A stretch of DNA of 64,000 bases from Candidatus Omnitrophota bacterium. GTDB lineage: Bacteria; Omnitrophota; Gorgyraeia; Zapsychrales; Zapsychraceae. The translations under genes were made by a program, and so were the position numbers. The first letter of the stretch is position 1. Each line of letters begins with the position of its first letter. Of this stretch, positions 3,773-64,000 are shown one piece after another. The notes under the pieces were generated by a model. It worked only from the letters and a program-made list of their open reading frames with translations, had not been told where the DNA came from and did no database searches. The stretch is from assembly GCA_020429915.1 (NCBI GenBank), contig JAGQKV010000005.1, forward strand, positions 7,125-71,124. Reading direction: 5' to 3'.

Positions 3773-3773
3773 T

Positions 3774-6764: not shown

Positions 6765-6792
6765 ATTATATGTAAAAGATTAATGTTCTTAA
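6765..6792 (-). promoter_or_regulatory. sigma70-like promoter of the V-ATPase operon
   Basis: On the minus strand, -35 TTAAGA (rc of 6787-6792), a 16-nt spacer and -10 TATAAT (rc of 6765-6770). A GGGAG RBS lies 8 nt upstream of the atpE ATG. The 75-bp spacer after pyrF is AT-rich. Confidence 0.45.
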
Positions 6793-6799
6793 TATACAC

Positions 6800-7555: not shown

Positions 7556-7556
7556 G

Positions 7557-8474: not shown

Positions 8475-8476
8475 AG

Positions 8477-25154: not shown

Positions 25155-25220
25155 GGCCTTATTGTTATATTGTATACTTGATTTGGTCATAATTAAGAGT
25201 TGTGTAAATGGGGATTGCCT

Positions 25221-36100: not shown

Positions 36101-36518
36101 CGATTTTTTCCATCGCTTCTCGAAAGCACTGGCGGTCTTCCGCTTTCTTGATGACATCATAGTCGGCCCCGAGCATCTGCACATCATACTTTTCCAGGAC
36201 CTTGGCCTCATACAGCTTCATCGCAATGTTAAGCGCCGTCTGTCCGCCCAACGTCGGCAGGATCGCGTCCGGGCGTTCCTTGTCGATGATATATTCGACG
36301 TATTCCGGAGTGAGCGGCTCGACATAAGTGCGGTCCGCGAATTCCGGATCGGTCATGATCGTCGCCGGATTGGAATTCACCAGGACAATTTCATAACCTT
36401 CCTCACGTAATGCTTTACACGCTTGTGTGCCTGAATAGTCGAACTCGCACGCCTGACCAATAACAATCGGCCCCGAGCCCAATAACAAAATCTTCTGAAT
36501 ATCGGTTCGTTTAGGCAT
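33198..36518 (-). CDS. carB: Carbamoyl-phosphate synthase large subunit
   Basis: 1106 aa with duplicated ATP-grasp halves and an MGS-like C-terminal domain. Confidence 0.95.
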
Positions 36519-37620
36519 TCGCTGTTTCCATCATATTAATAAAGTGCTTAAACAAATACTGGGCATCATGCGGGCCCGGCGCGGCCTCCGGGTGATGTTG
36601 AATAGACAGGATCGGCAACTTCTTGTGGCGTAGCCCTTCCAAGGTCTGGTCATTCAGGTTCACATCGATCATCTCGATATCATGCGCCTTCAGACTGTCG
36701 AGGTCCACACAAAATCCATGATTCTGCGACGTAATTCCGATCCGTTCGTCGAGCAGGTCCTTTACGGGATGATTGGCGCCGTGATGGCCGAATTTAAGCT
36801 TGTACGTCTGTCCGCCCAAGGCCAACCCTAACATCTGATGCCCCAAGCAGATACCGAATGTGGGCAGTTTGCCGGCCAATTCTTTCAGGGTCGCTACGAC
36901 ATACGTCACCGCCGCCGGGTCGCCCGGACCGTTGGAGACAAACAGACCGTCGGGTTCGACGGCCAGGATCTCTTCGGCCGTGGCCGAGGCGGGAAATACA
37001 TGGACCTCGCAGTCCAGATCGTTGAGAATTCGCAGAATATTAAACTTGATCCCGCAATCCAGCGCGGCGACCGTGTACTTCTTATCGGTCTTCCCGGCCT
37101 TCCGGCCCTTGGGCCAAATATATTTTTTCTTGGTGGTGACCTTGCTCACCCAGTCGGCACCGATCATCGACGGTACGGCATCGATTTTCTTCTGGAGGCT
37201 GGCGGAGTCAAAATCCGTCGTGGAGATGATCGCCTTCATCGCGCCCTGCTCCCGCAGATGACGGGTCAGCGCGCGGGTATCGATCCCCTCGATCGCCATG
37301 ATTTTATTTTCGTCGAGATAGTCAATGAGGCTCTGTGTGGCCCGGTAATTGGAGTGGTGACGGCAGAATTCCTTGACCACAAACCCCTTCACATGGACCT
37401 TGTCGGATTCCACGTCTTCGTCGTTGACGCCGTAATTGCCGATCAACGGATAGGTCATGATCACGATCTGCCCTGCATAAGACGGATCCGTCAGGACTTC
37501 CTGATAGCCGCTCATAGCGGTGTTGAATACCGCTTCACCAGCACTTTCCCCCTGCTGGGACAACGACCGGCCGATAAAGCTCGTCCCGTCTTCTAAATAG
37601 AGTATCGCTCGGCTGCTCAT
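36511..37620 (-). CDS. carA: Carbamoyl-phosphate synthase small subunit
   Basis: Start at the internal Met [19 protein letters not shown].... There is a GATase class I domain (GICLGHQ) and the catalytic His near the C-terminus. It overlaps the carB start by 8 nt. Confidence 0.9.
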
Positions 37621-37678
37621 ACTAATTTTGATTGATTTGAGGAAATCGGGTAGGACTGCGGCTCCCGCAGCCTGGCTA

Positions 37679-37706
37679 ACTATATCATCCTGGAAAGGAA
37701 AGTCAA
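37679..37706 (-). promoter_or_regulatory. sigma70-like promoter upstream of carA
   Basis: On the minus strand, -35 TTGACT (rc of 37701-37706), a 16-nt spacer and -10 TATAGT (rc of 37679-37684). The leader contains the hairpin GGCUGCGGGAGCCGCAGUCC. Confidence 0.45.
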
Positions 37707-37791
37707 GCAGTAATGTCCGGTGATATCGGCTCATTTTCGGCCGATTCGCCTCGACGCCCGGCCGGGCGAATACGCTCCGGAATTGGACATC

Positions 37792-37903
37792 ATGTCGGGT
37801 TAAGTCCGCCCAAAAAGGTGTTGGGTTAAGCCCTATATTTAGGGGTACGGAGCCGGCCGGATGTCGGGTTAAGTCCGCACAAATGGATGTTGGGTTAAGT
37901 CCC
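37792..37903. repeat. Tandem ~43-bp direct repeat x2, each with two GGGTTAAG(T/C)CC half-sites
   Basis: atgtcgggttaagtccgcccaaaaaggtgttgggttaagccc (37792-37833) and atgtcgggttaagtccgcacaaatggatgttgggttaagtccc (37861-37903), lying immediately 3' of the giant-gene stop and about 90-200 bp upstream of the carA -35. Confidence 0.6.
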
Positions 37904-37908: not shown

Positions 37909-40900
37909 TTAATCCACAATGATAACCGCGCCGCGTAACGGGCCGAAGATCCAGTGCGGTTCGGCCTCGGGACGGTCGGTATTGCCGGCATCCACGGAAT
38001 TGCCGGTGACGATATTGTTGGAGGACGCCTGCGAATCGCGGACATTGACGAAACCGACATTTTGTTCCGCCCCCGTCACATCCACTGTGAAACGGGTGCC
38101 CGTGGTCGAAGAACGGATGTTCAAACGGTTTGATCCGTTGAACCCGTCCAGAGTGAGCGTTCCGGCCACGGTGAGTGTCGACTGCTGACCGACCGTCAGG
38201 GTCCGGGCGGGGCCGGCGCTCAGCGTCTTGTCAAGACTGTAGAACGTCTCGGAGGCCGGGATCTCCTGATCGGCTCCATCCAGGACCACAGTGCCGCTGC
38301 GGGCCGCGAAGACCCCGCCGAAGTTCTCCCAATTGCCGCCGACATTGATCTGATAGTCGTTTCCGGCACTGACATCCAAGGTTCCGGCATTGAGCCGCAG
38401 CGTGCCGTTGACATCCAGCGCGGTTTGCAGGGTGTACGTGCCCACCGCGGTGGCCGGCATGTTGCCGTTGGCTAAAGCCTGGATTTCCGCGGTCGACAGT
38501 AACCGGTTATACATACGCACGTCGTCAATCAGCCCGTCAAACAATTCCGTCGGGAACGAGGCATTGGAACCGATCCGCACGTCGGTCACCGGAATATCCG
38601 TTACGGTCCCTCCGGTGGAACTGCCGCCGGTGACATCCGTACCGTTCACGTATATGGAGAACCTGTTCGCCGCCGATTGGGAAGCGTCATAGGTGACCAC
38701 CACATGCGTCCACACATCCTCAGTCACCACGGACTCGGCCTCGGTTACAATGCGATTGGCTCCTTGCGTGTAAAACCAAACAGAAATACCATCGGTAACC
38801 GATCCGCCGGGCAAGTCACCGCTTGAAACGGTATGGGTATAGAAATAGAAATAATTGTTCCCTCCCGCGGTTTGACTCCACAGCGTCGGCCACCCGCCGT
38901 TCGCGGTCAGGTCCTGGGTTAGGAACCACAGCGACCACGAATAGTCGTGGGAAATGTCAAAATCAAACACCGGATTATCGTCGATAGCCACATAGTCGCT
39001 GCTGCCGTCAAATTCGAGGCTCGCGGCATCCGCGAAGGCAATGGACCCGGAAATATCCGTGCTGGATGTCGGTGTTCCGGCCCATTCTCCATGATTACCG
39101 TAGCCGGACAAATCGCAGGCATCATCGAAAGTGGCGGCTGCGTTACAAACGCTGTTGGAATCCTCGGCTGTTTCATCGAGATTCCAGTAGCCGATCAACC
39201 CGTCATTGATGATCAAATCGTTGAAGATCGTGCCGCCCGTCGAGTCGATGGTCTCCGTTCCGGTCCCCGTAAACATTACCGCTCCCGATGAATGCGTAAA
39301 CGTACCGCCGGCGTGATCGAAGGAGGCGTCCAGTTCGGTGGTGTCGCTTGAAGCCGTGTAAACACCCGTCGTGATTGTGAGATTCCCGTCATGACGGAAG
39401 CGGTTGGTCGTTCCCGTAAACCGGCCGCCGGTCACGGTCGTGTCGCCGATAACAGCAACCGGTTCGATGATCGTGCTGTCGGCATAAGTCAGTGATCCTA
39501 AACTGATATCCAAACCATTGGTTACCGGGATATCATCCTGTAAGACCCAACCTCCATTCGGATTGCCCGCGGCAATATCGACGGCATAGAATGTTTGGGA
39601 ACCGGACAGGATTTCATTGTCGGGCGCTGAACTGTCGAAGACGACGATACCGCTATTCGGCGCAAATATCCCCCCGTTGTTTAACCAGCTCAATGCCACG
39701 TTGATCTGGCGATCGGCACCGGTATCAAGCGTGCCATCGTTGATCGACAAGCTGCCGTTGACGTCCAGATTATCCTGCAGGGTGTAGGTGCCCAGGCCGG
39801 TGCCCGGCATATATCCGTCGGCTATGCGCGCAATCTCGGCGGCCGACAACGCGCGGCTGTAGACGCGGACCTCATCGATACGGCCGTCGAAATCGCGGTT
39901 AAGATCACTGGCGCGCATACCGATACGCACCGTGTCGGTATAAGCATCGATACTCGAACCGGCTTGCGTATCCGATCCGGCCGCCCGTCCGTTGACGTAG
40001 AACGTGGCCACGTCCGTCGCGTCCTCCCATACAACAGCGACATGCTGCCACTCGCCAAGATCCACAACTTGATCATTAGAGGAGAACGTATAGTTGGTGC
40101 TGCTTCCCTCGAGTTGCAGAACCAGTCCCTCGTTCGGTTGGCCGCCGGAGTTGAGGTCGGAAATGTGGAACACCCATCCTCCTTCGTCGTTAAGCCCGCC
40201 GCCTTTGTCGACGATACGACCCTGAACACTCTGCCCCCAGGTATCCGGATAAATCCAGGCCGCTATGGTAATTCCGGCCGCCGTATCCAGATCCAACACA
40301 TCCGAATCGGCTATTTCGATATAGTCATTATTTCCATCCAGTTCGGCCGCTCCCGGATTATTGAAATTGATGGTGCCGTTAACCGACACGTTAACCGACA
40401 CGTCATTGACCCAGGTTCCGTCATGACCATACCCGGAGTAATCCACCGCCGGCGAGGCCGACTCATCCAATTTCCAGTATCCTACCAGTCCGTTGTTGAT
40501 CGCCAAATCATTAAAGGACTTGGTATCCGCCGTCACGGTCAGACTGCCGGTCGTTCCGGTCAGCACCACACTCGATCCCGTACTGGTAAAGACCCCTCCC
40601 GTCATATCCCAGATGCCGCCGACCGCGATGACGGTACGGCCGCCGGAACCGGAGGCGGCGTTCAGAGTTCCGTTAATATCCATGGTCCCGCTTAAGAAGA
40701 CGTCATAACCATCCGTGACCAAAGCATCCGTCGACATAATCTTCATCGACGTACCGGTCAGGTTGGTTGTGAGCGTAGTCATGTCGGGTGACTGACCGAC
40801 CACGATCCAGCCGACATCCTGCTGCGGCGATGTGTTGTCCGCGTAGGTGAGATCGCCGTCGAATGTCAACGTTCCGGCATCCGACTTGAGGAAGACCGTA

Positions 40901-58900: not shown

Positions 58901-61900
58901 GTTACGTCATTGAAGATCATCGCCCCCGAGGTCACCGTCTGTGTCCCGGTCGTGGCATCGAAGATCACCGTGGAGGTATTCGCGGTGAACGTACCTCCCG
59001 AGAAGGTCCAGTCGCCTTCGACATTGATGGTCGTGTCGCTGGCAATAAATGTGGCCCCTTCCTGGATATAGCCGTCCGCCCCCAGATCGACCGTAATGCC
59101 GGCTCCCTGCGTAATGGTTCCCGTATAGGAGGCGTCGATCAGTATCCCCAGAATGGTCACATTGGCATCGATGGTCGCGTCTTTGGAGCTGGTAATGTCG
59201 AAAATGGCGACATCCGTCGGAGAAGGCACGACATCTCCCAGCCAGTTTTGCGGTGTGCTCCAATTGTTGTCCGCGCCGCCGCCGTCCCAGATCACCCCGG
59301 AGCCGAAGAACCAGTTGGTGTTATTGCCGCTGTCGGTCGAACCGGTGGCCAAGACCACCCCGCCGCTGCTGGCATCGGAACGTTTGACGTCGACTTTGTC
59401 CTGGAGTTGTGAATTACCGGTGAGCGTCAACTCCCAGTCGACCGCGGCATCGGCCACACTGCGCAATATGGATTGCGTCCCGGAGGTGCCGTTACTGTCA
59501 AAAGTACCGTTGATCGTGATGCCGTTGCCGCCGCCGGTGGCGACTTCGTGAATCTTGCTGGCCCCGAGGATGACTGTTCCGAAAGACTGTCCGTAATCGG
59601 TGATCGTGGCGGTCACACCGGAATTGTAGAACTGAACGGTAGAGGTGACGGCATCGAAGCTCAGCGCGGCGGATGTCACCGTTTCGTTTCCATACAGACG
59701 GAACCCGTCATCCACGTCGATTTGGTCGGCGACCGCAAGGTTGAATCCGGCCAGGTCCAGGGTTCCCGCGGTGACCACAAAGTCCTCACTGGCTTCGACC
59801 GCGCTGAAGTCGAAGGCCAGGACCACGCTGCCCGAAACCTTGTTGACGGTGAAGCTGCCGTTCGTCCACGGATCACCAGCGATCCCCGTAATTGTCTGTG
59901 TGGCCGTACCGTCGAAGACAATGTTGGTGGTCCCGTCGACATCGGTGTCGACGGTGTTGGTCAGATCCCCGGCGAGGGTGACCACTCCGCCGTCCAGACC
60001 GCCGCTGCCCATTTGGACGATGGCCAGCTGACCGTTGATATCAAACGTGCCGGTGATGTCCAGGCCATCGGAGGTATCCGTGTTGATGGCCACATCATTG
60101 ACCGACATGGTTCCGGTATTAATCACACCGCCGTCGTTAAAGCTGACCGAACTGGCTGACCAGTCGGTTGTCCCCTGCACGTACTCCAGGAGAACCTGGG
60201 CGCCGTTGTTATTACCGCTGATATAGATATCATCCGTCACGGTCAGTGTTCCGGACGGCTTATTGATACGGATACCGGTCAGGGCCGCGTCGCCGCCGCT
60301 GCCGTTCATCGCCTGGGCTCCGGAGCCTTCGATCACAATTACGGTGGAACCGGTGACACTTGTATCCGTACTGACGACGTCGCCACTGACACCGATTTCT
60401 CCACCGAGCAGACTTGAAATTTGAGATATTGTCAGGTTATTGCCGATATTCAATGTGCCGGTGATCGTAACATCGTCGGCGACGCCCGCATTGAATATCA
60501 GATTATTGAGGACCACACTTCCGGCATCGATTGTCCCGCGGTCACGGATGCGGATTGTACTGGTACCGGCATCAACCGTTCCTTGAATATAATCAAAGAC
60601 AACCTTGGCTCCGTCATTGTTGCCGTAGATGTCGATTGTGTCACTGATGGTCAATGTGCCGGCCGACTTATCCACTATCAGTGACGGAAGCGCGCCAGTT
60701 CCCCCGCCGGCTCCCAAGGCCTGGGCCCCCGAACCGTCAAACACGAGGAATCCGGACCCGTCCACAGTGGCGTCGGTAGTGGTGACATCGCCGGCTACGG
60801 CCAGAGTTCCGGTTTCAATTAGATCCAGTTGGGTGAGCGTGAGGTTCCCGTTGATATCCACCGTTCCGGAGATCGTAATGTCGTCAGTCGTCTCATCCGT
60901 ATTGACGGTGACATTGTTGAACATCATGGTTCCCGAGGACACCGTGGCCGCGTCGGTCAGCACAACGGTACTTGTTCCGGAGTCGACCGTACCGGCAACA
61001 TAGTACCAGCCACGGTCGTTAATGTTGATCGTATCCGAAACGGTCAACGTGCCACCGGATTTATTGATCCGAATCCCGGGCAGCTCACCGGTGCCGCCGC
61101 TCGCGTTCAACGATTGGGCACCGACTCCGTCGACATAAATCGCGAAGGACCCTTCAACGGTCGTATCCGTAGTCACGATGTCTCCGCCGGCAGCGATGGT
61201 CCCGGTTGTAATCAGAGCTGTGTTTGATATCGTCAGGGCTCCGTTGACGTCCATCGTACCAGTGATGGCAAAGGTATCATCCGTCTGGCTGATGGTCACC
61301 GCGTTGAAGATACTGCTGCCCGCATTCACCGTCTGAGTCCCGGAGGTAGCGTCGAAGATCACGGTAGAACCGCCGCCGGTAAAGGTGCCGCCGCTGACCG
61401 ACCAATCGCCCTCAACATTAATATTCGCCGTCCCGCCGGTGAACGCCCCGCCCTGCTGGTCGAATCCGGAGGTTCCCAGATCCATATTACTACCCGCTCC
61501 TTGGGTGATGGTCCCGCTGTAGGAAGATTGTATCAGGATTCCGGCAATGGTCACCGACGCGTCCACCGTGGCGTCCTTGGTACTGGTGCCATTAAAGACC
61601 GCAATATCTCCGGCACCCGGAGTGGAGTCTCCGAGCCAATTTTGCGGGGTACTCCAGTTATTATCTCCCCCGCCACCGTCCCAAACGACCGCGCTGGAGA
61701 ACAGCCAATTGGTATTGTTTCCGCTGTCCGTCGATCCGCCCGCTATGACGAGCGTACCGGCCGAGGCATCGGACCGTTTGACATCGACCTTATCCTGGAG
61801 ATTGGAAACACCCTGCAGGTCTAACTCCCAGTCGACGGCCGCGTCCGCCACGCTGCGCAGGACTGACCGACTGGCCAGGCTGCCGTTGCTGTCGAAGGTA

Positions 61901-64000
61901 CCGTTGACGGTAATGCCGTTGCCGCCGCCGGTGGCGACTTCATGCACCTTGCCCGCACCGAGGGTCAGATTGTTAAAGGCCTGCGCGTAATTGGTAATCA
62001 CGGCGGTTACGGCATTATCGTAGAACTGAACGGTGGATGCCGCGGAGTCGATGGAAAACGTGGTCGCCGTAATTGTTTCATCCCCGTGCAGACGCAGGCC
62101 GGCATCGACATCGAACTGGTCGGCCACGGTCACGTCAAAGCCGGCCAAATCAAGCGTCCCGTTTGTAACCAACAGGTCCTGACTGGATTCATTCAGGACC
62201 AAGTCGGCAGCCAAAATCGCGGATCCCGCTGATTTGTCGATTGTCCAATCGGCATTCGGCCACGGATCCACGGCACCGCCGGTGGAGATCGTTTGATCGA
62301 CCGCTCCGTCCAGGATGATCGGAGTGGTTCCGTCAACCCCGTTGCTGTCGGTCGATGATATATCGCCGGCCACGGTGATCGCTCCGCCGTTCATATTCAC
62401 CACCAGCAGTATCGAGAGGTTTCCGTTGACGTCCATGGTCCCGGTTAAGTTCAGATCATTGGTGCTCGTATTGATTTCCACATTGTTGAACATCATATTC
62501 GCGTCGGCAATATGGACATCCGACTGATCGGTTTGGGTAAACCGAACCGTGCTCGTGCCGCCATCCACCGCCCCGGCAATATGCGTCCAGTCATAGGCCA
62601 CGTAGATCAAGCTGGACAGCGTCAGAGTTCCACCGGACTTATTGATGACCACATTCGGGATTTGACCGCCTCCGGCAACCCCCTGGAGCTGTTGGGCGCC
62701 CGCTCCGTCCAGCAAGAGATAAACGTCCTCCAATTGCGTGTACGCGGTATCGACCAAACTTACGTCGCCAGCGACGGCCAGCGTTCCGCTGCCGGACCAG
62801 GTATTCAACGTGGTCAGCGTAAAGTTCCCGTTAATATCCAGTGTTCCGGAAGTGGTCAGCGCGGCGGTACTCTTGTTCAGGGTGAGATTGTTAAAGGCCA
62901 TCGATCCTGACGGAGCTATCGTAATCGTTGAGGCTGCGACCGGTCCGAACGTCACCGAGCTCGTGCCGCCGGCAACGGTTCCCGCGATGTAATCCCAGTC
63001 GCGGTCAATGTTCATGGCCCCCAACAGCGTCAACGTGCCTCCCGACTTATTGATCCGTATCGACGTAAAGTCCCGCGTCGCGCCGGTCACCGCCTCAAGA
63101 TTTTGATTGCCGCTGCCGTCCAGAAGAATCACGGACGTCCCGGTCACCGCCGTATCGCTGTTAACCACGTTCCCGGCCACCGCCAGCACACCGCCGTTCA
63201 TGGCCCCCATGGACGTAATCGTCAGCTGCCCATTGATGTCCATGGTTCCGCTCAGCGTCAGGTTTTGCGCTCCCGTCACCAAGGTGACATTATTAAACTG
63301 CATCGAGCCGGAGGCCAGCGTCACTGTGTGGCCGGTGGTATTGTTAAACTGCACCGTGCTACTGCCCGCGGCGACGGTCCCCGCTGTATACGTCCAGTTA
63401 CGGTCGATCGACATATTTCCCAGCAATGTGAGGGTTCCCGCGGACTTGTTAATGCTGATCGACGTAAAATTGCGGGTCGCTCCGGTGACCGCCTCCAGAT
63501 TTTGATCACCGGTTCCGTCGAGCAGAATAACCGACGTCCCGTTTATCGCGGTATCGCTGTTGCGGACATTACCGGCCACCAAATAATTTCCGGAATTCAT
63601 GTTGGCCGCGGAGACGATACTGAGCGTCCCGTTGATGTCCATATTTCCCGTCAAGGTCACGTCACCGCCGCCATCGATATTGACGTCGTTAAACACAGCG
63701 CTTCCGGTATTGAGCGCCTTGGCCCCGGCCGTCTGGAAGGTGACCGATCCTGTCCCGGCGTCAAGTGTCCCGCTGGTGACCGTCAGATTGGAATCGATGC
63801 CCAGGTCATTGGCCCCGATGGACAGCGTCCCGCCGGCAACGGTCACACTCTCGGCGTCTTGGTCGCCGGTCAGGGTGACCGCATGAGAGTCAACGGTGAC
63901 GTCATCGTCGGCGTCCGGAATAACGGCACAATCCCACGTCCCGGCGTTATTCCAGTCGCCGTCGGCCTGATCATTACAGGCCAGCGCCCAGGCGGAACCG
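37909..64000 (-). CDS. Giant mosaic repeat protein (>8,690 aa in-window; N-terminus off-window): beta-helix-like repeats, NNW modules, 9 LamG_3 domains, Cna-B-like domain, Gly-rich super-repeats
   Basis: One continuous minus-strand frame runs from the stop at 37909-37911 to the window edge. The track gives 8,645 aa from a GTG, and the frame stays open for the remaining codons up to 64000. The repeat composition is strongly periodic, as detailed in the sub-features. Confidence 0.9.
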   Translation of the reverse strand, partial: GSAWALACNDQADGDWNNAGTWDCAVIPDADDDVTVDSHAVTLTGDQDAESVTVAGGTLSIGANDLGIDSNLTVTSGTLDAGTGSVTFQTAGAKALNTGSAVFNDVNIDGGGDVTLTGNMDINGTLSIVSAANMNSGNYLVAGNVRNSDTAINGTSVILLDGTGDQNLEAVTGATRNFTSISINKSAGTLTLLGNMSIDRNWTYTAGTVAAGSSTVQFNNTTGHTVTLASGSMQFNNVTLVTGAQNLTLSGTMDINGQLTITSMGAMNGGVLAVAGNVVNSDTAVTGTSVILLDGSGNQNLEAVTGATRDFTSIRINKSGGTLTLLGAMNIDRDWDYIAGTVAGGTSSVTFGPVAASTITIAPSGSMAFNNLTLNKSTAALTTSGTLDINGNFTLTTLNTWSGSGTLAVAGDVSLVDTAYTQLEDVYLLLDGAGAQQLQGVAGGGQIPNVVINKSGGTLTLSSLIYVAYDWTHIAGAVDGGTSTVRFTQTDQSDVHIADANMMFNNVEINTSTNDLNLTGTMDVNGNLSILLVVNMNGGAITVAGDISSTDSNGVDGTTPIILDGAVDQTISTGGAVDPWPNADWTIDKSAGSAILAADLVLNESSQDLLVTNGTLDLAGFDVTVADQFDVDAGLRLHGDETITATTFSIDSAASTVQFYDNAVTAVITNYAQAFNNLTLGAGKVHEVATGGGNGITVNGTFDSNGSLASRSVLRSVADAAVDWELDLQGVSNLQDKVDVKRSDASAGTLVIAGGSTDSGNNTNWLFSSAVVWDGGGGDNNWSTPQNWLGDSTPGAGDIAVFNGTSTKDATVDASVTIAGILIQSSYSGTITQGAGSNMDLGTSGFDQQGGAFTGGTANINVEGDWSVSGGTFTGGGSTVIFDATSGTQTVNAGSSIFNAVTISQTDDTFAITGTMDVNGALTISNTALITTGTIAAGGDIVTTDTTVEGSFAIYVDGVGAQSLNASGGTGELPGIRINKSGGTLTVSDTININDRGWYYVAGTVDSGTSTVVLTDAATVSSGTMMFNNVTVNTDETTDDITISGTVDINGNLTLTQLDLIETGTLAVAGDVTTTDATVDGSGFLVFDGSGAQALGAGGGTGALPSLIVDKSAGTLTISDTIDIYGNNDGAKVVFDYIQGTVDAGTSTIRIRDRGTIDAGSVVLNNLIFNAGVADDVTITGTLNIGNNLTISQISSLLGGEIGVSGDVVSTDTSVTGSTVIVIEGSGAQAMNGSGGDAALTGIRINKPSGTLTVTDDIYISGNNNGAQVLLEYVQGTTDWSASSVSFNDGGVINTGTMSVNDVAINTDTSDGLDITGTFDINGQLAIVQMGSGGLDGGVVTLAGDLTNTVDTDVDGTTNIVFDGTATQTITGIAGDPWTNGSFTVNKVSGSVVLAFDFSAVEASEDFVVTAGTLDLAGFNLAVADQIDVDDGFRLYGNETVTSAALSFDAVTSTVQFYNSGVTATITDYGQSFGTVILGASKIHEVATGGGNGITINGTFDSNGTSGTQSILRSVADAAVDWELTLTGNSQLQDKVDVKRSDASSGGVVLATGSTDSGNNTNWFFGSGVIWDGGGADNNWSTPQNWLGDVVPSPTDVAIFDITSSKDATIDANVTILGILIDASYTGTITQGAGITVDLGADGYIQEGATFIASDTTINVEGDWTFSGGTFTANTSTVIFDATTGTQTVTSGAMIFNDVTVSQTDDTFDVSGTMDINGTLTLTNTAVMTTGTLAVAGNVVTTDAAITGAAVVYFDGGGAQSLTSNGGTGEVTGVSINKGGGTLTILGTINIDDAGWTYTAGTVDAGTSKVVFTDTSTVDSGAMMFNDVDITMEAAADDLNITGTMDVEGDLAITLLANLNGGDIAVATNVTTTDTTISGDGLIAFDGGGAQVLDAAGGTGELPGVIVDKSGGTLTIQDTINIDTGGWTYNMGTVDAGTSTVVLTNVSTVSAGSMSFNDVTVAAGGTNNITVSGTMDVAGTLSITSVSNINSSAVTVAGNIITTDTTAGGTSTIIADGPGAQTLSAGGGTGELPGFEVDKASGTLTIQDNINIDTGGWTYMAGTVDAGTSTVIFTATATVTGGSMTFNDVNINTGAAGDLTVSGTMDIAGTLTINSVNDINSGPIAISGNVITVDTTAGGTSLILFDGTGAQTLSANGATGEVPGVEINKTSGTLTIQDNINVDGGGWTYTAGNVDAGTSTVIWTDALTVASGTISFANVTFNTATLDVTVSGTLDVNGTLTLTTVGNINSGTVAAGGMVVSTDTGYGGSATLLFDGAMVQGFNLSGATGGINIDIDVNKTGGSVHLQSALTLDAAGQDFTIIEGTFDISGNNLSFSGNSFTVEDGGVYQLEGGETSSAPTLNSGSTVSYNGTSGPYTINDWGYDDLRVASDHLVGYWKYDETTSGGMNYSSSQYARHMFPYGTGGANTYPQPSASVPTTSFNNTRSFDFDGTDDYTKAAGFNELGTSNQPYTISAWINRDSGETDGTIIHASLLSAGTGGWCVSMLTLDSSQIEAHSWAPGAVQADGTTTLNAGQWYHIATTWDPVNGLTVYVNGVLEDSTAQATFSASGGANYIFAGWSGATCSGSENNYFDGQIDDVRIYSRALSATEIAELAAGDHLTENGYGEDFNLTANESLSGDLFVVNGTFDLVDNDLTVTGTVSNDDVIRLEGGQTVSITNMDSDSGLTRYDGSGTYSDWALDDEYYNLEFIGSGTWTAGSDMDVNGTITIESGTVADGGNSILLAGNWMRPGGTYTATGTIDFDGGDQTIYDSTTFNNFRKNVTTAATFTFETMERQIITGAMTMNGAAGQLLTLRGTEISLIQWEINPQGTRSVSYLDVTDSWNVNATEIDCTNNCVNSGNNTEWLFTTPTVNISGTVFTDEGSTNIGAGITVAISIDGAAAAATDDTDGSGTYSLTGLMMNAGDTLTLYIDDEASQGATVTIASDEDISNVDIYAGYLIVRSDNMGFNSNTLMADGDDNGDTDITDIFTVTAGNTLQVGSGIEMLVPMNQTYISQGAIETHSLDIEGTLNVSNYTISVDGNWENTGSFGMVGTVTFQGGAVQTIDAGGTGTAINDSTRDFPNLVITNNSFLQMINTELEVDTQLTINNGSTLDLNGQTLDLNGILSNDGTLRMQGSEGFEIGTFDSDSGLVMYDGTSSVTINATLSTYYDLTFDEEGTSDPTFTLPDIDLTVNGSLTIADAIVTNDDDKILTVSNDMVIQDTLTMAAGEIRVGGNWDATGGTFTPSTGSVIMSSSGTATITSNGNAFNDLYLNDGLTGYWKFDETSGTTSYDFSGYGYDGTQINTPTPSTVVPPRLRFTSLRSMDFNGSNEYVRATGFNTPTGDFTYSAWVIHDTATANDMIFMNADTSGNNEFVILANASNQIVVHTNNVSRVTSAQTITTDGVTWNHVAVTRSGSTIRIYINGVLDASTGTDGVAMSFTGCPLLIGADSDAGCFTTVNDFWDGHIDEARVYNRALSYAEIRRLANGHLPQVAAGTFTLQDDLDINGTLSINAGELDTGSDRNINVAGSWLNNGGIYTTNNNTVTMDGTGTGLVIQTGTMAFDTWQQTGSGTWTLYDAIDVNNEGNISAGTLTTATSPLPILLTGSLSVDGGTFTGVANDVRHDGQLSISSGAFTAPSTNYVLTETMNHTGGTFTNNGGTWVWAGTTSVAPDFSGGTVFNNVSLNDGLVGYWKLDEVAATALDSSGYGNHGTTANIAADASVPGAISFTDPLAYAFNGTTSTVNVGDPSGGELDFGVNEYFTISVWVKGSDTTNAQKVVDKRSTNGYQIRYTSGGGFFLRIDETSAITDTATSATVMDGAWHHIAAGRTPTHHFIIVDGTTVDITEDSSVEDISVTDDFAIGCNSASCTSGAWNGSIDDVRIYNRVLSMEEIQALAAGAQDPVSGRWTMAQTLDVDGGLLLSKTLDLNANNLDLEGSFDTDGTFIAQGDETISILTPQAIGGLAIYDGAVTSTLTADITGYYRLTFDNAGGTWTFPDTAVTVTSTMTIANGTAITDDDKQLTLDDVDINDTFTMQSGDVKVGGLWDATGGTFTSTGTLIFTSTENETITSNGSSFNDVIFNDGLVGYWRFEESAGNTCSGGVDDSCDLTKNGYDGFWSSSPTPTTTVAENIGYDNRRSIFLDGTDYIAIRDLNYDQVGQLEAVTACAWIRTTDTDGAIIDFDRSEYFSLSINFTSCANGEVQWSVADSGATVNDQCSASAVNDDQWHHVCGVYDATVTNDSIIYIDGVAESSNAFALGTALGTGTTRYGFIGDGSEASTFNSSTNAVYFGGYIDEVRLYHRALSAAEIRLLAAGTMPGSALGTYTLQDNLDVNGTLQFYSGALDTGADRDVNVGGSWLNYGGAFVANSGNVIFDGAGTGSLILSGSQTFYDAEINGAGTWTLQDNFPITTIFDSRDGVLTYSDDTNIEPVTIEGTYRITTGGGAGTFTGTANRFRHAGNLLIQAGTYTAPTDVLEITGSFVHSAGTFTHSTSTVMFTGTVTGGQIDTSAGTSFHNVIINDGLVGYWKMTESVSPSFDYSGYDNDCTWINSPTASTEVPEVSFTDPGSLDFDNADGDYLNCGATDSLAITDTITIMAWIYIDGAADPEEIIVTRSNSTGNQTNWRFMASTYNGGAGGNWGFRTDATSAEIQASTALSAGQWYHVAVTYDRTTVRFYLNGMPDGSGADADTLGTNYDVKIGRGIGGAQEHFDGRIDEVRIYNRVLSAAEIAAVTNSGQVATQTGIYTLQTDLDINGTLTLNSGELDIGDNRSINVAGSWFNHGGTFDEKTGAVTFDVQSGTVTVQETQTFYHVTVDDSPGGAGTVQQYSPLDINGTLTIAAGTLDASSNNHTINLAGGWDNSDTFLAQTGTVTLDGTLQAISGTTSFYNLSKNETTDDGTDSVLTFEAGTVFTVDGTLTLQGLDNDDRINLVSSSPGTRFTLDVTDADQRARFIDVTDSQTSSNDIIARRSLDTSNNDTDELTPHWIISPGDIYEWTSNGDGATWTDQANWDFGDASPGNDGYPDDNFDEALVLISADDITTPAGTLTLASFEMSSDFTGSVTLTGTLVADDAMGLSGNVTIATGTLTHPDNSNTETSKVVIQADGYLVVASGAQINVDALGYDMSFGPGAPVSMDNGGGYGGIGGDHSRDGTESTTYGSLFAPVNIGSGGVNSFGDGSGGGAVILTVAGTVTVDGTITAGGEGGRTSGSGGSIFITADNLQGSGALAANGGSNLPASDRAGGGGGRIAVILTGAGADFSAFNVAGTLQAHGGEATADYEDGAAGTIYLEAPDVASGQGTLIIDNNDLTVTGTVVTLMPTAVNLNNFEDIVIRNRGYLGVDADDTLTFGTANLTTEGKNDAFITIIDDTLVTFPNPYTLTGYTLNGDGLSSITGDWTITDGVLSHSQNATAETWLLNMTLAGDLVINADGAVDVSEKGYTSGYGPGSPVIAENGGAYGGRGGDHDDDGATSSTYGSITAPVNFGSGGSINTFGYAHGGGAIILNVSGTTTVNGTMAADGAFGDADGSGAGGSIYLTTGFLTGTGAFSADGGGGTNSRGGGGGGRIAVILTGASADFSAFDVTGTMHAYGGPQWAANGAGAAGTLYRQTEAQGTGNGILIIDNNGQDTASAGNVITALDDEDVNITTVVGSLVILNNADFTIGSDDELTVGGTLTTLTIDVTGSLVNEGTLNLGGSVFSVADLTDISFSTTGSDVVYIGQDDDAGVSILDRVYYNLRADNAGTTFTNTAALDINGSFNLDDGFFVQGNNNMNVAGNFTLASGTTFTKPTGSGTLTFDGDLYFADNTSPLQDLGRLVIGSSPDTTTLTTDMSATTLTVDTGDALITDGYEVDIAGTVTINGTLNATSGTDAATTITLGGPWDSSGGIFTESVSTVIFDGTTGTATITMGSNSFYNLTVNDGNAGGDYTVRTVSDLYINGSLAVADGTFDADGYELTIGSNVDINGTLDIGSGTDGAVTAVVGGNWDATGGVFTATDSTVLFTGTSASATITSNANAFNNVTLNDGLVGYWKLDEAAADTCSGGTNDACDSSGYGYDGAWGGNATADTNVAETITFTNPRSVTFDGTGDSINMGDVLDQTTSFSVSFWMYAQDIATAGRRIVIKDNGSNGWAVSLGDPGAGALRFFIRSVSTVSTDTAAVITANRWYHVAAVFDDAANTKRIYVNGTQEALSSSVTGTPIDGPSFLGIGGGGSGNSFQGEIDEVRIYNRALSAAEVRAMANGYQPATSAGTYTLQDDLDINGTLTINSGELDTGSDRDITIADSWMNNGGKFTANNGDVLFDGGPSVGLILSGSQTFYNVDVTTSGTWSLQDNAPVSNVFDISAGVLTYSTDTTIEPVAIVGNTTLTGGTFTGNARRFRHDGDLTISSGQYTAPTDVLEIDGTFTHSGGTFTNSSSTVMFTGTDNHGIDVTGGAVFDDVIVNDGLIGYWKLDEASGSTSIDSSGYGNHGTWQGTPAATSSVSSAIQFRDPQALDFGATTDYVLIPRSRELSDLTELTLAAWVRVDGAPGTGWGRIIHKSDGGTADDYALIHRASTLAMIFRIHVGGAQVQITGNPVTTADGWVHVAGTWNGSSVRLYQDGTLTAGPTAASGALTDSIEPLAIGRHENSNTRDFDGAIDEVRIYNRALSSTEIAALAAGSTPAAAVGAYTLQADLDVDGTLIINSGELDAGANRAIDVGGFWLNHGGVFDEQSGSVTMDAQSGTVGVQELQTFYNLIVDDTPGGGTTFELYSALDVNNDLTIAGGDLDVSAANYDINLAGNWINNDTFTAQSGTFALDGTTQSLVGSTTFYNLSKVETTNNATDSVITLEAGSTFAVQNNLTVAGIDSDDRVNLVSSVPGTRWNLDVQLGDERVMWLDVSDGEALSNDILAANSIDNSNNDSMEAAPHFVFSFGSIYEWTGASDQATWEDELNWDFGDGSAGDDGYPDDATDKAFFMSSGHIIDTPSGTLTIGEIETQTGFTGTIVLTGTMEVDDSTGLSGDAFFVTGTLRHLDNSTAETNRFIMLVDGDFNLGSLAMIDVSGLGYDTNQGPGQPAGSRVGGAYGGSGGDYNMGGEANTSVYGSITAPVNIGSGGGIIATGSSGGGAVILEVAGTATIDGTIAADGVDGSDGSGSGGSIFITAGQLTGTGTLTANGGSGITGRGSGGGGRIAAVLTASGADFMSWTGTMNAFGGKSTDGQHEDGAAGTVYLETEAVIAGGGTLIIDNDGADAYAEVTTLMPTSVNLDSFAEIVIRNNGHLAIGADDTYDFTNDTITGSGASESYVTIIDDTLVTFPAAYTISNYTLHPDGVSAVTGHWTVASGGRLSHTMNREAETYTLNLTITGSLTVQSGGEINVDYMGYESSFGPGVPTTARDGGSYGGCGGDHSPKTNTCTTYGSITAPVNIGSGTLDDSGMHELGSGGGAIILTVTGTTTLEGTMSAVGEENLDFTAAAGSGGSIYLTTGYLTGAGAFDADGGDGSAQGRAGGGGGRIAVILTGTSADLMSFTGTMHAYGGIGIATDYGAAGTVYTETAVQGSGNGILTVDNQNRDADTANGVVTTLDDEDANITTVVGSLLVDNGGYFVMGADDQLTIGGTLATLTVNSGATFVNEGTLYLGGEGFTALGTVNFATTGNIVEYTGRDDDNTIPVLGAVYYNVNFDNDGTIFRTFVDLDVNGTFNLQAGTFDQNSSDLNVAGNFILDAGTVFLKSDAGTLTFDGDLTYADNTSPQQDVGWIVVGQSPDMTTLTTNLTGTSMKIMSTDALVTDGYDVFLSGTMDINGTLNAASGSGGRTVIAVGGIWDMTGGVFTSTGSSVVLTGTTGSLTVTADTKSFNDLAINNGLVGYWKLDESASPAVDYSGYGHDGTWVNDVSVNVSVNGTINFNNPGAAELDGNNDYIEIADSDVLDLDTAAGITIAAWIYPDTWGQSVQGRIVDKGGGLNDEGGWVFHISDLNSGGQPNEGLVLQLEGSSTNYTFSSNDQVVDLGEWQHVAVVWEDATDVATFYVNGRAAGSDTQAGSSIDAYTDTVRIGMRASDLNRDFDGRIDEVRVYSRALSAAEIARIADGYMPGTGLGTYTLQDNLDVNGSLSINDGTLDTGADRQINVALSWLNNGGIFAPNSGIVVFDSSAPDNEILSGSQTFYAVDIAAGNPNGGWVLQDDIPVTNGLDISLGSLTYADSTIIEPVAVIGDTTVTGGRFTGTTNRFRHDGNLTITTGVYTASSDTTELDASFDHAGGTFTHSSGAVMFTGTGTETIDSTGGTIFNDLIINDGLIGYWNLDETAEDSNSVCNAAATFDDACDLSGYGNHGEWAGTPTSSTDISGSIAFADAASLEFDGSSDYVAIDDNPVFDFDISHDYSWSLWFLTQDLTANGGWPTLWSQTAGGNNYFYFYTHTVSSGDLPGGSVTDGISVWFYTQGANRIVTEAESVVTEDVWTHVVVTYDASQSAANRFSIYVNGTDVTGGSSTGGTVTDIPVTDVRIGSNASFPTELFDGLIDDVRMYNRLLSTAEIQALANGNMPATAVGTYTLQTALDVNGTLRLNAGTLDVSAGNDYQINVGGNWENFGGVFAARSGTVVLDGADQEIPASETFYSLDKTLSAGPARTLTVGQQSTLTVAGTLTLDGFNGSNRLNIRSSTTGTRFTVDVTGAEQNVGFVNVRDSQASSNNIVTGNSVDAGNTDRPEAEPHWIFGPLRGAVIIVD
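38461..39201 (-). other. LamG_3 domain 9 (res ~8216-8462), Cys-containing variant
   Basis: GLIGYWNLDETAEDSNSVCNAAATFDDACD ... WTHVVVTYD ... FDGLIDDVRMYNRLLSTAEIQAL. The following unit is 430 aa, the same as unit 8. Confidence 0.75.
39814..40491 (-). other. LamG_3 domain 8 (res ~7786-8010)
   Basis: GLVGYWKLDESASPA ... WQHVAVVWE ... FDGRIDEVRVYSRALSAAEIARI. It is followed by a 430-aa unit. Confidence 0.75.
40492..44679 (-). repeat. Super-repeat B (~1,396 aa; res 6390-7785), paralogous to super-repeat A
   Basis: It has the same module order as A. The Gly-rich modules lie at about 42367-42876 and 41413-41928 (GGAYGGSGGDY...GGGAVILEVAG...GSGGGGRIAAVLT and GGSYGGCGGDH...GGGAIILTVTG...GGGGGRIAVILTG). 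Confidence 0.7.
44002..44679 (-). other. LamG_3 domain 7 (res ~6390-6615); begins super-repeat B
   Basis: GLIGYWKLDEASGST ... WVHVAGTWN ... FDGAIDEVRIYNRALSSTEIAAL. Confidence 0.75.
45277..45933 (-). other. LamG_3 domain 6 (res ~5972-6190), Cys-containing variant
   Basis: GLVGYWKLDEAAADTCSGGTNDACD ... WYHVAAVFD ... FQGEIDEVRIYNRALSAAEVRAM. Confidence 0.75.
45934..50433 (-). repeat. Super-repeat A (~1,500 aa; res 4472-5971): LamG + beta-helix cap + two Gly-rich modules + beta-helix
   Basis: It is homologous along its length to super-repeat B (for example TPHWIISPGDIYEWTSNGDGATWTDQANWDFGD vs APHFVFSFGSIYEWTGASDQATWEDELNWDFGD, and GYDMSFGPGAPVSMDNGGGYGGIGGDH vs GYDTNQGPGQPAGSRVGGAYGGSGGDY). 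The Gly-rich modules lie at about 48130-48633 and 47170-47685. Confidence 0.7.
49792..50433 (-). other. LamG_3 domain 5 (res ~4472-4685); begins super-repeat A
   Basis: GLVGYWKMTESVSPS ... WYHVAVTYD ... FDGRIDEVRIYNRVLSAAEIAAV. Confidence 0.75.
51052..51747 (-). other. LamG_3 domain 4 (res ~4034-4265), Cys-containing variant
   Basis: GLVGYWRFEESAGNTCSGGVDDSCD ... WHHVCGVYD ... FGGYIDEVRLYHRALSAAEIRLL. Confidence 0.75.
52297..52935 (-). other. LamG_3 domain 3 (res ~3638-3850)
   Basis: GLVGYWKLDEVAATA ... WHHIAAGRT ... NGSIDDVRIYNRVLSMEEIQAL. Confidence 0.75.
53542..54174 (-). other. LamG_3 domain 2 (res ~3225-3435)
   Basis: GLTGYWKFDETSGTT ... WNHVAVTRSG ... FWDGHIDEARVYNRALSYAEIRRL. Confidence 0.75.
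55114..55395 (-). other. Cna-B-type / carboxypeptidase-regulatory-like (prealbumin fold) domain candidate (res ~2818-2911)
   Basis: TVNISGTVFTDEGSTNIGAGITVAISIDG...DGSGTYSLTGL..GDTLTLYI...YAGYLIV, the typical G-x-V-x-D...G-x-Y-x-[LF] pattern. Confidence 0.5.
56137..56826 (-). other. LamG_3 (concanavalin A-like lectin) domain 1 (res ~2341-2570)
   Basis: HLVGYWKYDE ... WYHIATTWD ... FDGQIDDVRIYSRALSATEIAEL. Confidence 0.75.
59077..59889 (-). repeat. 'NNW' module 2 (res ~1320-1590)
   Basis: ...GGGNGITINGTFDSNG...VDWELTLTG...KVDVKRSDASSGG...NTNWFFGSGVIWDGGGADNNWSTPQNWLGDVVPSPTDVAIFDIT.... Confidence 0.6.
61477..62289 (-). repeat. 'NNW' module 1 (giant protein res ~520-790)
   Basis: ...GGGNGITVNGTFDSNG...VDWELDLQG...KVDVKRSDAS...NTNWLFSSAVVWDGGGGDNNWSTPQNWLGDSTPGAGDIAVFNGT.... 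It is about 70% identical to module 2. The NW...NW...P..D.A.F pattern resembles the openings of autotransporter-associated beta-strand repeat regions. Confidence 0.6.

What the first reader, a model, noticed from the sequence alone, without database searches (positions are those of the whole stretch)
37909..64000. Giant uninterrupted ORF of more than 26 kb (more than 8,690 codons), its 5' end beyond the window, encoding a mosaic repeat protein
A single minus-strand frame stays open from the stop at 37909-37911 to the window edge. The track gives 8,645 aa from an internal GTG, and I translated the remaining ~50 codons up to 64000 by hand and found no stop, so the true N-terminus and any secretion signal lie off-window. 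The gene fills 41% of the window. The product combines at least four internally repetitive module families: about 105-aa beta-helix-like units, two NNW modules, nine LamG_3 lectin-like domains, and two ~1.4-1.5-kaa super-repeats with Gly-rich modules. It also carries a Cna-B-like fold. This combination reads as a huge extracellular or cell-surface protein with adhesin, S-layer-like or prey/host-contact function. Proteins of this size are rare. This one is encoded directly beside core metabolism (carA), with no transposase, integrase or tRNA-integration scar nearby. It therefore looks like a resident chromosomal gene rather than island cargo.
Basis: partly seen in the sequence, partly recalled or inferred. 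Interest (0 to 1): 0.85.

Follow-up and report, generated by a model that had tools for sequence, protein, structure and literature searches.

The report
Giant secreted beta-helix/lectin protein, Omnitrophota
This is a real 26-kb gene of an uncultured Omnitrophota bacterium encoding an 8,723-residue exported fibre-like protein with nine lectin-like domains, most likely a cell-contact adhesin; it is large, but giant genes of this type are already documented in this phylum.

Summary
The open frame is real: 8,696 codons run from the window edge to the stop at 37909-37911. An overlapping public contig shows that the true ATG lies only 27 codons beyond the window. The N-terminus has a Sec-type signal sequence. 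The full protein is 8,723 aa, about 896 kDa, pI 4.05. It has no other hydrophobic segment.

Nine Laminin_G_3 domains are confirmed. The other repeat families have no Pfam or NCBIfam match, but AlphaFold models (pLDDT 92.7 and 84.6) fold as right-handed beta-helices. Their closest solved structures are adhesins such as HMW1, EtpA and tapirin.

Some first-reader numbers need correcting. The unit is about 130 aa, not 105. The super-repeat is about 1.9 kaa, not 1.4-1.5. There are five NNW heads, not two. "Cna-B" is only a sub-threshold CarboxypepD_reg match.

The protein is six head-body-cap cassettes, and each resembles a standalone secreted homologue. The host is Candidatus Omnitrophota, where giant ORFs over 20 kb with LamG_3 domains are already published.

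An upstream gene encodes four tandem HTH domains and is preceded by TTAACATATGTTAA boxes. This arrangement recurs in a distant relative.

Verdict: genuine, a new member of a known kind, moderately interesting.

The parts
37909..64000 (-). In-window part of the giant gene: 8,696 codons plus the stop at 37909-37911. The ATG lies 27 codons beyond 64000. The full product is 8,723 aa.
63985..63999 (-). Last five residues (GSAWA) of the N-terminal Sec-type signal sequence MKKLLLTIWNDVLRSLLVAVIATGLFAGSAWA|LA. The rest lies off-window in L001.
   Evidence: It is the only segment with Kyte-Doolittle >= 1.6 in the whole protein. The cleavage site was inferred by eye (AXA rule), not by a predictor.
63925..63960 (-). 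Head motif 1 (GDWNNAGTW), directly after the signal sequence.
   Evidence: Forty-four Met-start homologues carry the head motif within their first 60 residues.
62191..63771 (-). Four ~130-aa beta-helix units (cassette 1).
62679..62683 (-). G5 run on the coding strand. Logan contig L001 has G4 here, which splits the gene into 485 aa plus the rest.
   Evidence: The ENA fragment P0278 reads through this site in frame.
61708..61974 (-). Cap module 1.
61600..61647 (-). Head motif 2 (VWDGGGGDNNWSTPQNW).
59794..61389 (-). Four ~130-aa beta-helix units (cassette 2), modelled as a right-handed parallel beta-helix.
59314..59574 (-). Cap module 2.
   Evidence: Its AF2 confidence is low.
59206..59253 (-). 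Head motif 3.
57061..58995 (-). Five ~130-aa beta-helix units (cassette 3). DNA period is 390-393 nt.
56149..56856 (-). LamG_3 domain 1.
55408..55665 (-). Cap module 3.
55141..55380 (-).
   Evidence: E 0.0059, 17.4 bits, below the Pfam cutoff of 32.3
53533..54207 (-). LamG_3 domain 2.
   Evidence: PDB 4qvs, an S-layer domain protein, matches at E 4.9e-10.
52300..52968 (-). LamG_3 domain 3.
51052..51780 (-). LamG_3 domain 4.
49789..50466 (-). LamG_3 domain 5.
49045..49329 (-). Cap module 4.
48931..48978 (-). Head motif 4 (YEWTSNGDGATWTDQANW).
47053..48882 (-). Gly-rich beta-helix units 1 and 2 (cassette 5).
   Evidence: No Pfam hit at E <= 5.
45283..45966 (-). LamG_3 domain 6.
44035..44712 (-). 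LamG_3 domain 7.
43288..43572 (-). Cap module 5.
43174..43221 (-). Head motif 5.
41290..43125 (-). Gly-rich beta-helix units 3 and 4 (cassette 6).
39814..40524 (-). LamG_3 domain 8.
38464..39234 (-). LamG_3 domain 9.
37954..38232 (-). Cap module 6.
37912..37953 (-). C-terminal tail EPHWIFGPLRGAVIIVD-COOH. The family-typical ending is W.F[PG]..G[AT]hhhh[RD].
   Evidence: The same ending (GPIRGAVIMVD*) occurs in the distant relative L012.

Best explanation
The gene encodes one 8,723-aa, roughly 896-kDa, very acidic protein.

Export (inferred): the protein is exported by the Sec pathway through an N-terminal signal sequence.

Shape: outside the cytoplasm it folds into a long right-handed beta-helix fibre. 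If the cassettes stack end to end, the fibre would be of the order of 100 nm. That figure assumes about 6,500 beta-helix residues, about 26 residues per coil and a 0.48 nm rise per coil, and is an inference. Nine concanavalin-like LamG_3 domains project from the fibre as multivalent glycan- or surface-binding modules.

Function (inferred): the most likely role is adhesion or contact with other cells or particles, in line with the host-dependent or predatory lifestyle proposed for Omnitrophota.

Architecture: the protein is a chain of six cassettes, each with a W..G..W..NW head, a beta-helix body with or without LamG domains, and a ~90-aa cap. Each cassette has the layout of standalone secreted homologues of about 800-860 aa. 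The giant therefore probably arose by in-frame fusion and duplication of such genes (inferred).

Regulation (inferred): transcription probably starts upstream of a 240-aa protein made of four tandem HTH_17 domains. That gene's stop overlaps the giant's ATG. It is preceded by three composite TTAACATATGTTAA boxes that overlap promoter-like hexamers, which suggests an autoregulated operon.

Shown here: the open reading frame, the N-terminus, the domain content, the predicted fold, the cassette map, the synteny and the conserved boxes. Inferred: export route, fibre geometry, ligand, adhesion role and regulation.
For: - The ORF and its N-terminus are established.
- The protein has a single N-terminal hydrophobic segment, pI 4.05, and 24 Cys arranged in 12 local pairs.
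- Nine PF13385 domains are present (E 4.5e-90 and 2.1e-128).
- The ~130-aa unit occurs in 13 strong copies and about 29 diverged copies along the whole protein.
- There are six caps, five heads and four Gly-rich units.
- Standalone head-Gly x2-cap homologues exist, and their C-terminal tail aligns with the giant's.
- The host is Omnitrophota. NCBI accession order in two related MAGs leaves a single CDS slot between the HTH gene and carA.
- The 4xHTH gene and its boxes are described. The same order, boxes then multi-HTH gene then giant-like gene, occurs in the distant relative L012.
- Published context: PMC10066038; bioRxiv 10.64898/2026.06.07.730766.
Against: - There is no experimental or expression evidence.
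- No signal-peptide predictor was available, so cleavage versus an uncleaved anchor is unresolved.
- No outer-membrane secretion route is identifiable. There is no TPS domain, autotransporter barrel, T9SS CTD or RTX/T1SS signal. No secretion genes lie in the 37 kb downstream or directly upstream.
- The LamG ligand is unknown.
- The cap module was modelled with low confidence.
- Two short public contigs carry frame disruptions in the 5' part, so some population variants may be truncated.
Confidence: 0.55

Rival explanations
1. Polyprotein. The six cassettes are cleaved apart at the cap-to-head junctions after export. One Sec substrate would then yield six separate beta-helix/LamG surface proteins.
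For: - Each cassette has the layout of a complete standalone secreted homologue.
- Standalone proteins end exactly where the next head begins in the giant.
- The cap-to-head junction, with about 12 aa of spacing, recurs in at least 12 homologues.
- West-Roberts et al. proposed post-translational cleavage for Omnitrophota giants.
Against: - No protease domain or known autoproteolytic motif was found.
- In the alignment, the first strand of each head occupies the position of the terminal strand of standalone proteins. That fits a continuous fold as well as it fits a cleavage site.
Confidence: 0.15
2. Polysaccharide-degrading machine. Some beta-helix cassettes are catalytic (lyase, hydrolase or depolymerase) and the LamG domains act as carbohydrate-binding modules. 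The protein would digest prey cell walls or environmental glycans.
For: - An arabinanase LamG-like domain matches at E 8e-6.
- A cell-wall degradation hypothesis exists for Omnitrophota giants.
Against: - No glycoside hydrolase, lyase or Beta_helix Pfam/NCBIfam family hits at E <= 0.01.
- The top structural matches are non-enzymatic adhesins.
- No CAZyme genes flank the locus.
Confidence: 0.15
3. Structural coat or S-layer-like sheath protein. It would cover the cell rather than mediate specific adhesion.
For: - The best sequence match in the PDB is an S-layer domain-containing protein (4qvs, E 4.9e-10).
- The protein is very acidic and repetitive.
- An extracellular "coat" was proposed for the Velamenicoccus giant protein.
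Against: - No SLH or other anchoring domain is present, and there are no TM helices other than the N-terminal segment.
- A single-copy 900-kDa fibre is an unusual lattice subunit.
Confidence: 0.12
4. Artefact or pseudogene. The ORF would be an assembly chimera, or a decaying gene that is not expressed as one product.
For: One Logan contig has G4 instead of G5 and splits the gene. One ENA fragment has a different frameshift near residue 653.
Against: - 8,696 codons are open, against at most 555 in other frames.
- DNA repeats reach only 82 % identity, over about 100 nt.
- Independent assemblies are identical, one of them with a 6,610-codon call that runs to its contig end.
- The other N-terminal fragment reads through the G5 site in frame.
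- Domain models score strongly throughout the protein.
Confidence: 0.03

Closest known systems
Omnitrophota giant ORFs with laminin_G_3 domains (Seymour et al. 2023, PMC10066038), and the "tandem-repeat scaffold" class with high-copy PF13385 and "SP-only" topology (Nielsen & Lui 2026, bioRxiv 10.64898/2026.06.07.730766)
   Same: - Same phylum.
- The ORF exceeds 20 kb.
- One Pfam family (PF13385) is repeated many times.
- A signal sequence is present without further TM helices.
- The internal repeats are diverged at the nucleotide level.
- The same proposed role in cell contact.
   Different: - At 8,723 aa it falls below the 10-kaa catalogue threshold.
- It sits among pyrimidine and carbamoyl-phosphate genes rather than next to T2SS/Tad or glycoside hydrolase genes.
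- The head-body-cap cassette organisation and the 4xHTH partner gene did not appear in the sections of those papers that I read.
Archaeovorin / Dockerin-type giant proteins of Omnitrophota (West-Roberts et al. 2023, bioRxiv 10.1101/2023.11.21.568195)
   Same: Same phylum, with long beta-rich fibrous regions and a proposed role in prey contact.
   Different: - Those proteins exceed 30,000 aa.
- They carry many TM regions, SecA DEAD-like domains, C39/S8 peptidase or dockerin domains, and an antiparallel beta-helix tube.
- None of these features is present here.
Two-partner-secretion and autotransporter beta-helix adhesins (HMW1, FHA, EtpA, HxuA, Ag43, pertactin)
   Same: A right-handed parallel beta-helix shaft. 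These are the best structural matches to both modelled regions. They are also Sec-exported.
   Different: This protein has no TPS domain, no TpsB partner and no C-terminal beta-barrel. Sequence identity is only 8-20 %. Inserted LamG domains are not a feature of those adhesins.
Tapirins of Caldicellulosiruptor (cellulose-binding beta-helix adhesins; PDB 6n2b, 4wa0)
   Different: Only about 150 residues align, at 12-14 % identity. Tapirins are small monoderm proteins associated with type IV pili.

Membership tests
Omnitrophota giant ORFs (>20 kb; Seymour et al. 2023) | Encoded in an Omnitrophota genome | tested here: met
   carA, carB, pyrG and the upstream HTH protein fall in 90 %-identity clusters with NCBI proteins named Candidatus Omnitrophica/Omnitrophota bacterium.
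Omnitrophota giant ORFs (>20 kb; Seymour et al. 2023) | Single ORF longer than 20 kb | tested here: met
   26,172 nt including the stop (8,723 codons + stop).
Omnitrophota long-protein catalogue, class 2 tandem-repeat scaffold (Nielsen & Lui 2026) | Length >= 10,000 aa | tested here: not met
   8,723 aa.
Omnitrophota long-protein catalogue, class 2 tandem-repeat scaffold (Nielsen & Lui 2026) | One Pfam family dominates by copy number (for example PF13385) | tested here: met
   Nine PF13385 stretches. All other hits are overlapping LamG-type families or weak matches.
Omnitrophota long-protein catalogue, SP-only topology | Signal peptide and no TM helix | tested here: inconclusive
   The only hydrophobic 19-mers (KD >= 1.6) lie in residues 4-35, followed by AWA|LA. 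No SignalP or DeepTMHMM was available.
Archaeovorin/Dockerin-type giants (West-Roberts 2023) | More than 30,000 aa, many TM regions, and SecA DEAD-like, C39/S8 peptidase or dockerin domains | tested here: not met
   None of these Pfam families hits at E <= 0.01. There is one hydrophobic segment only.
Laminin_G_3 / concanavalin-like lectin domain (PF13385) | HMM match above the gathering score | tested here: met
   300 and 424 bits against a cutoff of 27.6, in 4 + 5 stretches.
Right-handed parallel beta-helix (pectin-lyase-like fold) | Stacked three-stranded coils, judged by structure | tested here: met
Beta_helix PF13229 / Chlam_PMP PF02415 / PATR PF12951-TIGR02601 | HMM match | tested here: not met
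   No hit at E <= 0.01 in Pfam or NCBIfam. Cassette 2 alone gave no hit at E <= 5 except a 9-bit noise match.
Cna_B (PF05738) | HMM match | tested here: not met
   No Cna_B hit. The only match is CarboxypepD_reg PF13620 at E 0.0059, 17.4 bits, below the cutoff of 32.3.
Two-partner secretion TpsA adhesins | N-terminal TPS (Haemagg_act) domain and an adjacent TpsB transporter | tested here: not met
   No PF05860 hit. The neighbours are the 4xHTH gene and carA.
Type Va autotransporters | C-terminal beta-barrel translocator (PF03797) | tested here: not met
   The C-terminus is a cap module plus a 14-aa tail, with no barrel family.
T9SS cargo | C-terminal Por_Secre_tail (PF18962) | tested here: not met
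   Absent here. It is present only in distant Bacteroidota homologues of the ~130-aa units.
RTX / T1SS giant adhesins (LapA, SiiE type) | RTX nonapeptide repeats, C-terminal T1SS signal, no Sec signal, adjacent ABC/MFP genes | tested here: not met
   No PF00353 hit. An N-terminal Sec-type signal is present. No transporter genes are nearby.

The most novel reading that the evidence does not exclude
The giant protein may be a secreted polyprotein. Six cassettes, each equivalent to a complete standalone head-beta-helix-cap protein, would cross the membrane through one signal peptide and then be separated at the conserved cap-to-head junctions. The whole unit may be switched by a dedicated regulator with four tandem HTH domains that reads a conserved array of TTAACATATGTTAA boxes. 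Together these would define a previously undescribed regulator-operator-giant-adhesin module shared among Omnitrophota lineages.
Probability: 0.12. Interest if true: 0.6.

Novelty: new member of a known kind. Interest (0 to 1): 0.35.

Why it matters
The finding adds a fully delimited example of the smaller, signal-peptide-only, LamG-rich class of Omnitrophota giant proteins. Both ends are known, the N-terminal signal is recovered, and a module map is available.

It shows that such a protein can be read as a chain of cassettes that also exist as standalone secreted proteins. That points to a simple evolutionary route to gigantism, namely in-frame fusion of tandem paralogues. It also supplies tractable ~800-aa units for expression and binding tests.

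The Gly-rich beta-helix module has no Pfam or NCBIfam model, yet it matches about 19,000 cluster representatives. Describing it would therefore annotate many large metagenomic proteins.

The conserved 4xHTH gene and its operator boxes give a testable handle on how these costly genes are controlled.

None of this overturns current views. It refines them.

Tried and rejected
- **Named HMMs.** Cna_B, PF13229, PF02415 and TIGR02601/PF12951 gave no hits in Pfam or NCBIfam on both halves of the protein.
- **Full-length orthologues.** The search for homologous proteins returned only hits of about 1,220 aa or shorter in three searches, so full-length orthologues could not be retrieved.
- **Contig scans with the 4xHTH protein.** The genome contigs and metagenome-contig scans returned only single-HTH genes with no giant-like neighbours. 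Conservation of the HTH-giant pairing therefore rests on L012 and on NCBI accession adjacency.
- **dN/dS from a strain variant.** In L008 all 29 differences lie in carB and none in the giant gene, so no estimate was possible.
- **AFDB fold search.** The library was unavailable.
- **Rfam.** Scans of both flanking intergenic regions found nothing meaningful, so there is no riboswitch.
- **Mobile-island reading.** Rejected: no integrase or transposase domain, no GC shift, and the tRNA-Leu lies about 8 kb away between rpe and pyrG. The upstream gene is named "excisionase family" in NCBI, but it is a 4x HTH_17 repeat protein, not an excisionase context.
- **Phase variation at the G5 tract.** Considered weak: the tract is short, only one contig has G4, and another fragment reads through it.
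Full report
**Observation**

The minus-strand frame from window 63999 down to the stop at 37909-37911 has 8,696 sense codons and no internal stop. There are no Ns, and GC is 0.573 against 0.562 for the window. The ORF listing reports the same 8,645-aa ORF from an internal GTG. The longest ORF in any other frame of this region is 555 aa. The ORF is therefore real and far beyond chance.

**N-terminus**

A search with the first 700 residues found a 100 %-identical 485-aa fragment, P0001. Its Logan contig L001 (SRR23924733, 8,384 nt) matches window 56690-64000 with 0 mismatches and one 1-nt indel. L001 places the ATG only 27 codons beyond the window. The N-terminus reads MKKLLLTIWNDVLRSLLVAVIATGLFAGSAWA|LACND.

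The full protein is 8,723 aa, 896 kDa, pI 4.05. Its only hydrophobic 19-mers lie in residues 4-35. Its 24 cysteines fall in 12 local pairs. That pattern fits an exported, non-membrane-spanning protein. Signal-peptide cleavage was judged by eye, not with a predictor.

**Assembly integrity**

Internal protein repeats are 35-67 % identical. The best DNA repeats are 82 % over 101 nt and 71 % over 300 nt, so repeat collapse is unlikely.

Independent ENA and Logan assemblies are 100 % identical to the window over 26511-47734 and over shorter 3' pieces. One ENA contig calls a 6,610-residue product that ends at the same stop and runs to that contig's end. With L001, the whole gene is therefore spanned by other assemblies. 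I could not read the sequence of window 47735-56689 in them directly.

Two short contigs carry frame disruptions:
- L001 has G4 where the window has G5, at 62679-62683.
- ENA fragment P0278 reads through that site in frame but is shifted near residue 653.

I regard these as errors or minor variants at contig tips, but cannot prove it.

**Domain content**

Pfam finds nine Laminin_G_3 domains (300 and 424 bits). Everything else is overlapping LamG-type or weak matches. NCBIfam finds nothing. The "Cna-B-like" segment gives only a sub-threshold CarboxypepD_reg match (E 0.006, 17.4 bits against 32.3).

HMMs built iteratively from the protein itself gave the following modules. Residue numbers here and below are in the window ORF.

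| Module | Copies | Note |
|---|---|---|
| ~130-aa unit | 13 strong, ~29 diverged | DNA period 390-393 nt; spread along the whole protein |
| Head motif W..G..W..NW | 5 | at residues 14, 785, 1583, 5008, 6927 |
| Cap module, ~90 aa | 6 | each internal cap is followed by a head, except cap 3 |
| Gly-rich unit, ~290 aa | 4 | two per cassette in cassettes 5 and 6 |

**Cassette map**

These modules define six cassettes, each running head, then body, then cap:

| Cassette | Residues |
|---|---|
| 1 | 1-770 |
| 2 | 771-1568 |
| 3 | 1569-2880 |
| 4 | 2881-4990 |
| 5 | 4991-6910 |
| 6 | 6911-8696 |

Cassette 4 opens with the CarboxypepD_reg-like segment rather than a head.

**Fold**

A model of cassette 2 (residues 771-1575) has pLDDT 84.6. 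Confidence exceeds 90 for the first ~600 residues and drops to around 45 in the cap region. Its best matches are EtpA (13.7), a metagenomic beta-helix, Vag8, K1 lyase, tailspikes, Ag43 and UpaB.

Both repeat families are thus predicted right-handed parallel beta-helices. The "beta-helix-like" reading is supported by structure prediction, not by HMMs. The similarity is generic for the fold and does not separate adhesin from enzyme.

**Homologues and cassette logic**

The Gly-rich module has no Pfam hit even at E <= 5. A profile of it nevertheless matches 19,030 cluster representatives (6,451 at E <= 1e-30). Many of those are 2-7 kaa proteins with up to 12 matched stretches. It is a widespread, unannotated building block.

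Among the retrieved homologues:
- 44 Met-start proteins carry the head motif within their first 60 residues.
- 7 end within 40 residues of a cap.
- Complete head-Gly x2-cap proteins of about 800-860 aa exist (P0239, P0267).
- The cap-to-head junction recurs in at least 12 multi-cassette homologues.

An alignment shows that the giant's C-terminal tail (PHWIFGPLRGAVIIVD) matches the ends of standalone proteins such as NYHWIFPPRGTVVTVR. The first strand of each internal head aligns with that terminal strand. The giant therefore reads as an in-frame chain of units that also exist as separate secreted proteins. No known C-terminal sorting or anchoring domain is present.

**Host and context**

carA, carB, pyrG and the upstream gene cluster at 90 % identity or more with proteins of Candidatus Omnitrophota MAGs. 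In two of those MAGs the NCBI accession order leaves exactly one CDS between the HTH gene and carA.

The rest of the window is core metabolism: carA, carB, purF, pyrG, rpe, pyrB/C/D/K/F/R-type genes, V-type ATPase, glmS, fpg, a DsbA-like protein and an S11 peptidase. A FIST-histidine kinase-GGDEF set is also present. There is one tRNA-Leu about 8 kb away and no GC anomaly. The "resident gene" reading is supported.

No secretion-system genes are nearby. This contrasts with the T2SS/Tad and glycoside hydrolase flanks reported for the largest Omnitrophota giants.

**Upstream regulator**

In L001 the giant's ATG overlaps the stop (ATGA) of a 240-aa protein made of four tandem HTH_17 repeats. That gene is preceded by three copies of a 42-nt composite box, TATTAACATATGTTAA-N5-7-ATTAACATAGGTGTTAGGCG. 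Two of the boxes (those at L001 73-114 and 131-172) coincide with promoter-like hexamers.

L012 is an error-rich long-read contig from a distant relative, whose HTH protein is 49 % identical. There a giant homologue ending GPIRGAVIMVD* is followed by two composite boxes, a multi-HTH gene and a second giant-like gene. In that contig 0 of 200 shuffles reached the observed number of box matches. This supports a conserved box-regulator-giant arrangement. Its regulatory role is inferred.

**Interpretation**

The best-supported explanation is a Sec-exported, fibrous beta-helix protein that displays nine lectin-like LamG domains and acts in adhesion or contact with cells or particles. If the cassettes stack coaxially the fibre would be of the order of 100 nm. 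That estimate uses standard beta-helix geometry and was not measured.

Rivals are a polyprotein cleaved at the junctions, a polysaccharide-degrading enzyme array, and a coat or S-layer-like protein. An artefact or pseudogene is very unlikely.

**Comparison with the literature**

- Seymour et al. 2023 (PMC10066038) report ORFs longer than 20 kb as common across Omnitrophota classes. They include ones with laminin_G_3 domains and propose cell-cell adhesion.
- Nielsen & Lui 2026 (bioRxiv 10.64898/2026.06.07.730766) describe a tandem-repeat-scaffold class with up to 36 PF13385 copies. They also describe a signal-peptide-only topology class covering 9-13 % of long proteins.
- West-Roberts et al. 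2023 (bioRxiv 10.1101/2023.11.21.568195) describe proteins of more than 30 kaa that are TM-rich and carry SecA or dockerin domains. This protein does not resemble those.

The finding is therefore a new member of a known kind. Three details were not mentioned in the sections of those papers that I read: the cassette organisation, the large Pfam-less Gly-rich beta-helix family, and the conserved 4xHTH/operator partner.

Noticed in passing
L001 73-260 and 276-998 (Logan contig that extends the window past 64000); also L012 8904-9035 and 9111-9792: Directly upstream of the giant gene lies a 240-aa protein of four tandem HTH_17 (excisionase-type) domains. Its stop overlaps the giant's ATG. It is preceded by three composite boxes built on the palindrome TTAACATATGTTAA. 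The same order, boxes then multi-HTH gene then giant-like gene, occurs in a distant relative. This is a candidate dedicated regulator and operator.
   Followed up: partly
window 37793-37899 (intergenic, between the giant stop and carA): There are four direct copies of CTTAACCCRACA, arranged as two ~45-nt units. These are the only matches in the 64-kb window, and 0 of 100 shuffles reached 4 matches. They share the TTAAC core with the upstream boxes. No Rfam hit. Function unknown.
   Followed up: partly
window 62679-62683; also near residue 653 of the full protein (window ~62120): One Logan contig has G4 instead of G5, which splits the gene into 485 aa plus the rest. One ENA fragment (P0278) is in frame at that site but is frameshifted about 170 residues later. 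These could be assembly errors at contig tips or real truncated variants in the population.
   Followed up: partly
window 41290-43125 and 47053-48882 (Gly-rich units): The head plus Gly-rich beta-helix module (motifs GGSGGSI and GGGGGRIAV) has no Pfam or NCBIfam model. Its profile nevertheless matches 19,030 cluster representatives (6,451 at E <= 1e-30), many of them multi-kaa proteins. It is a large unannotated family.
   Followed up: partly
window 24108-28871: A FIST-domain protein, a GAF histidine kinase and a response regulator with a GGDEF domain lie 9-13 kb downstream of the giant gene on the opposite strand. c-di-GMP signalling often controls large adhesins, but no link was tested.
   Followed up: no
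window 36511-37734 (carA): The longest carA ORF is 407 aa, but the closest NCBI orthologues are annotated at 369 aa. The real start may therefore be about 38 codons downstream. That would lengthen the giant-carA intergenic region to about 290 nt.
   Followed up: no
window 1494-6724: V/A-type ATPase subunit genes (A, B, D, E-like, DUF2764) occur next to the pyrimidine biosynthesis genes. No F-type ATPase was seen in this window.
   Followed up: no
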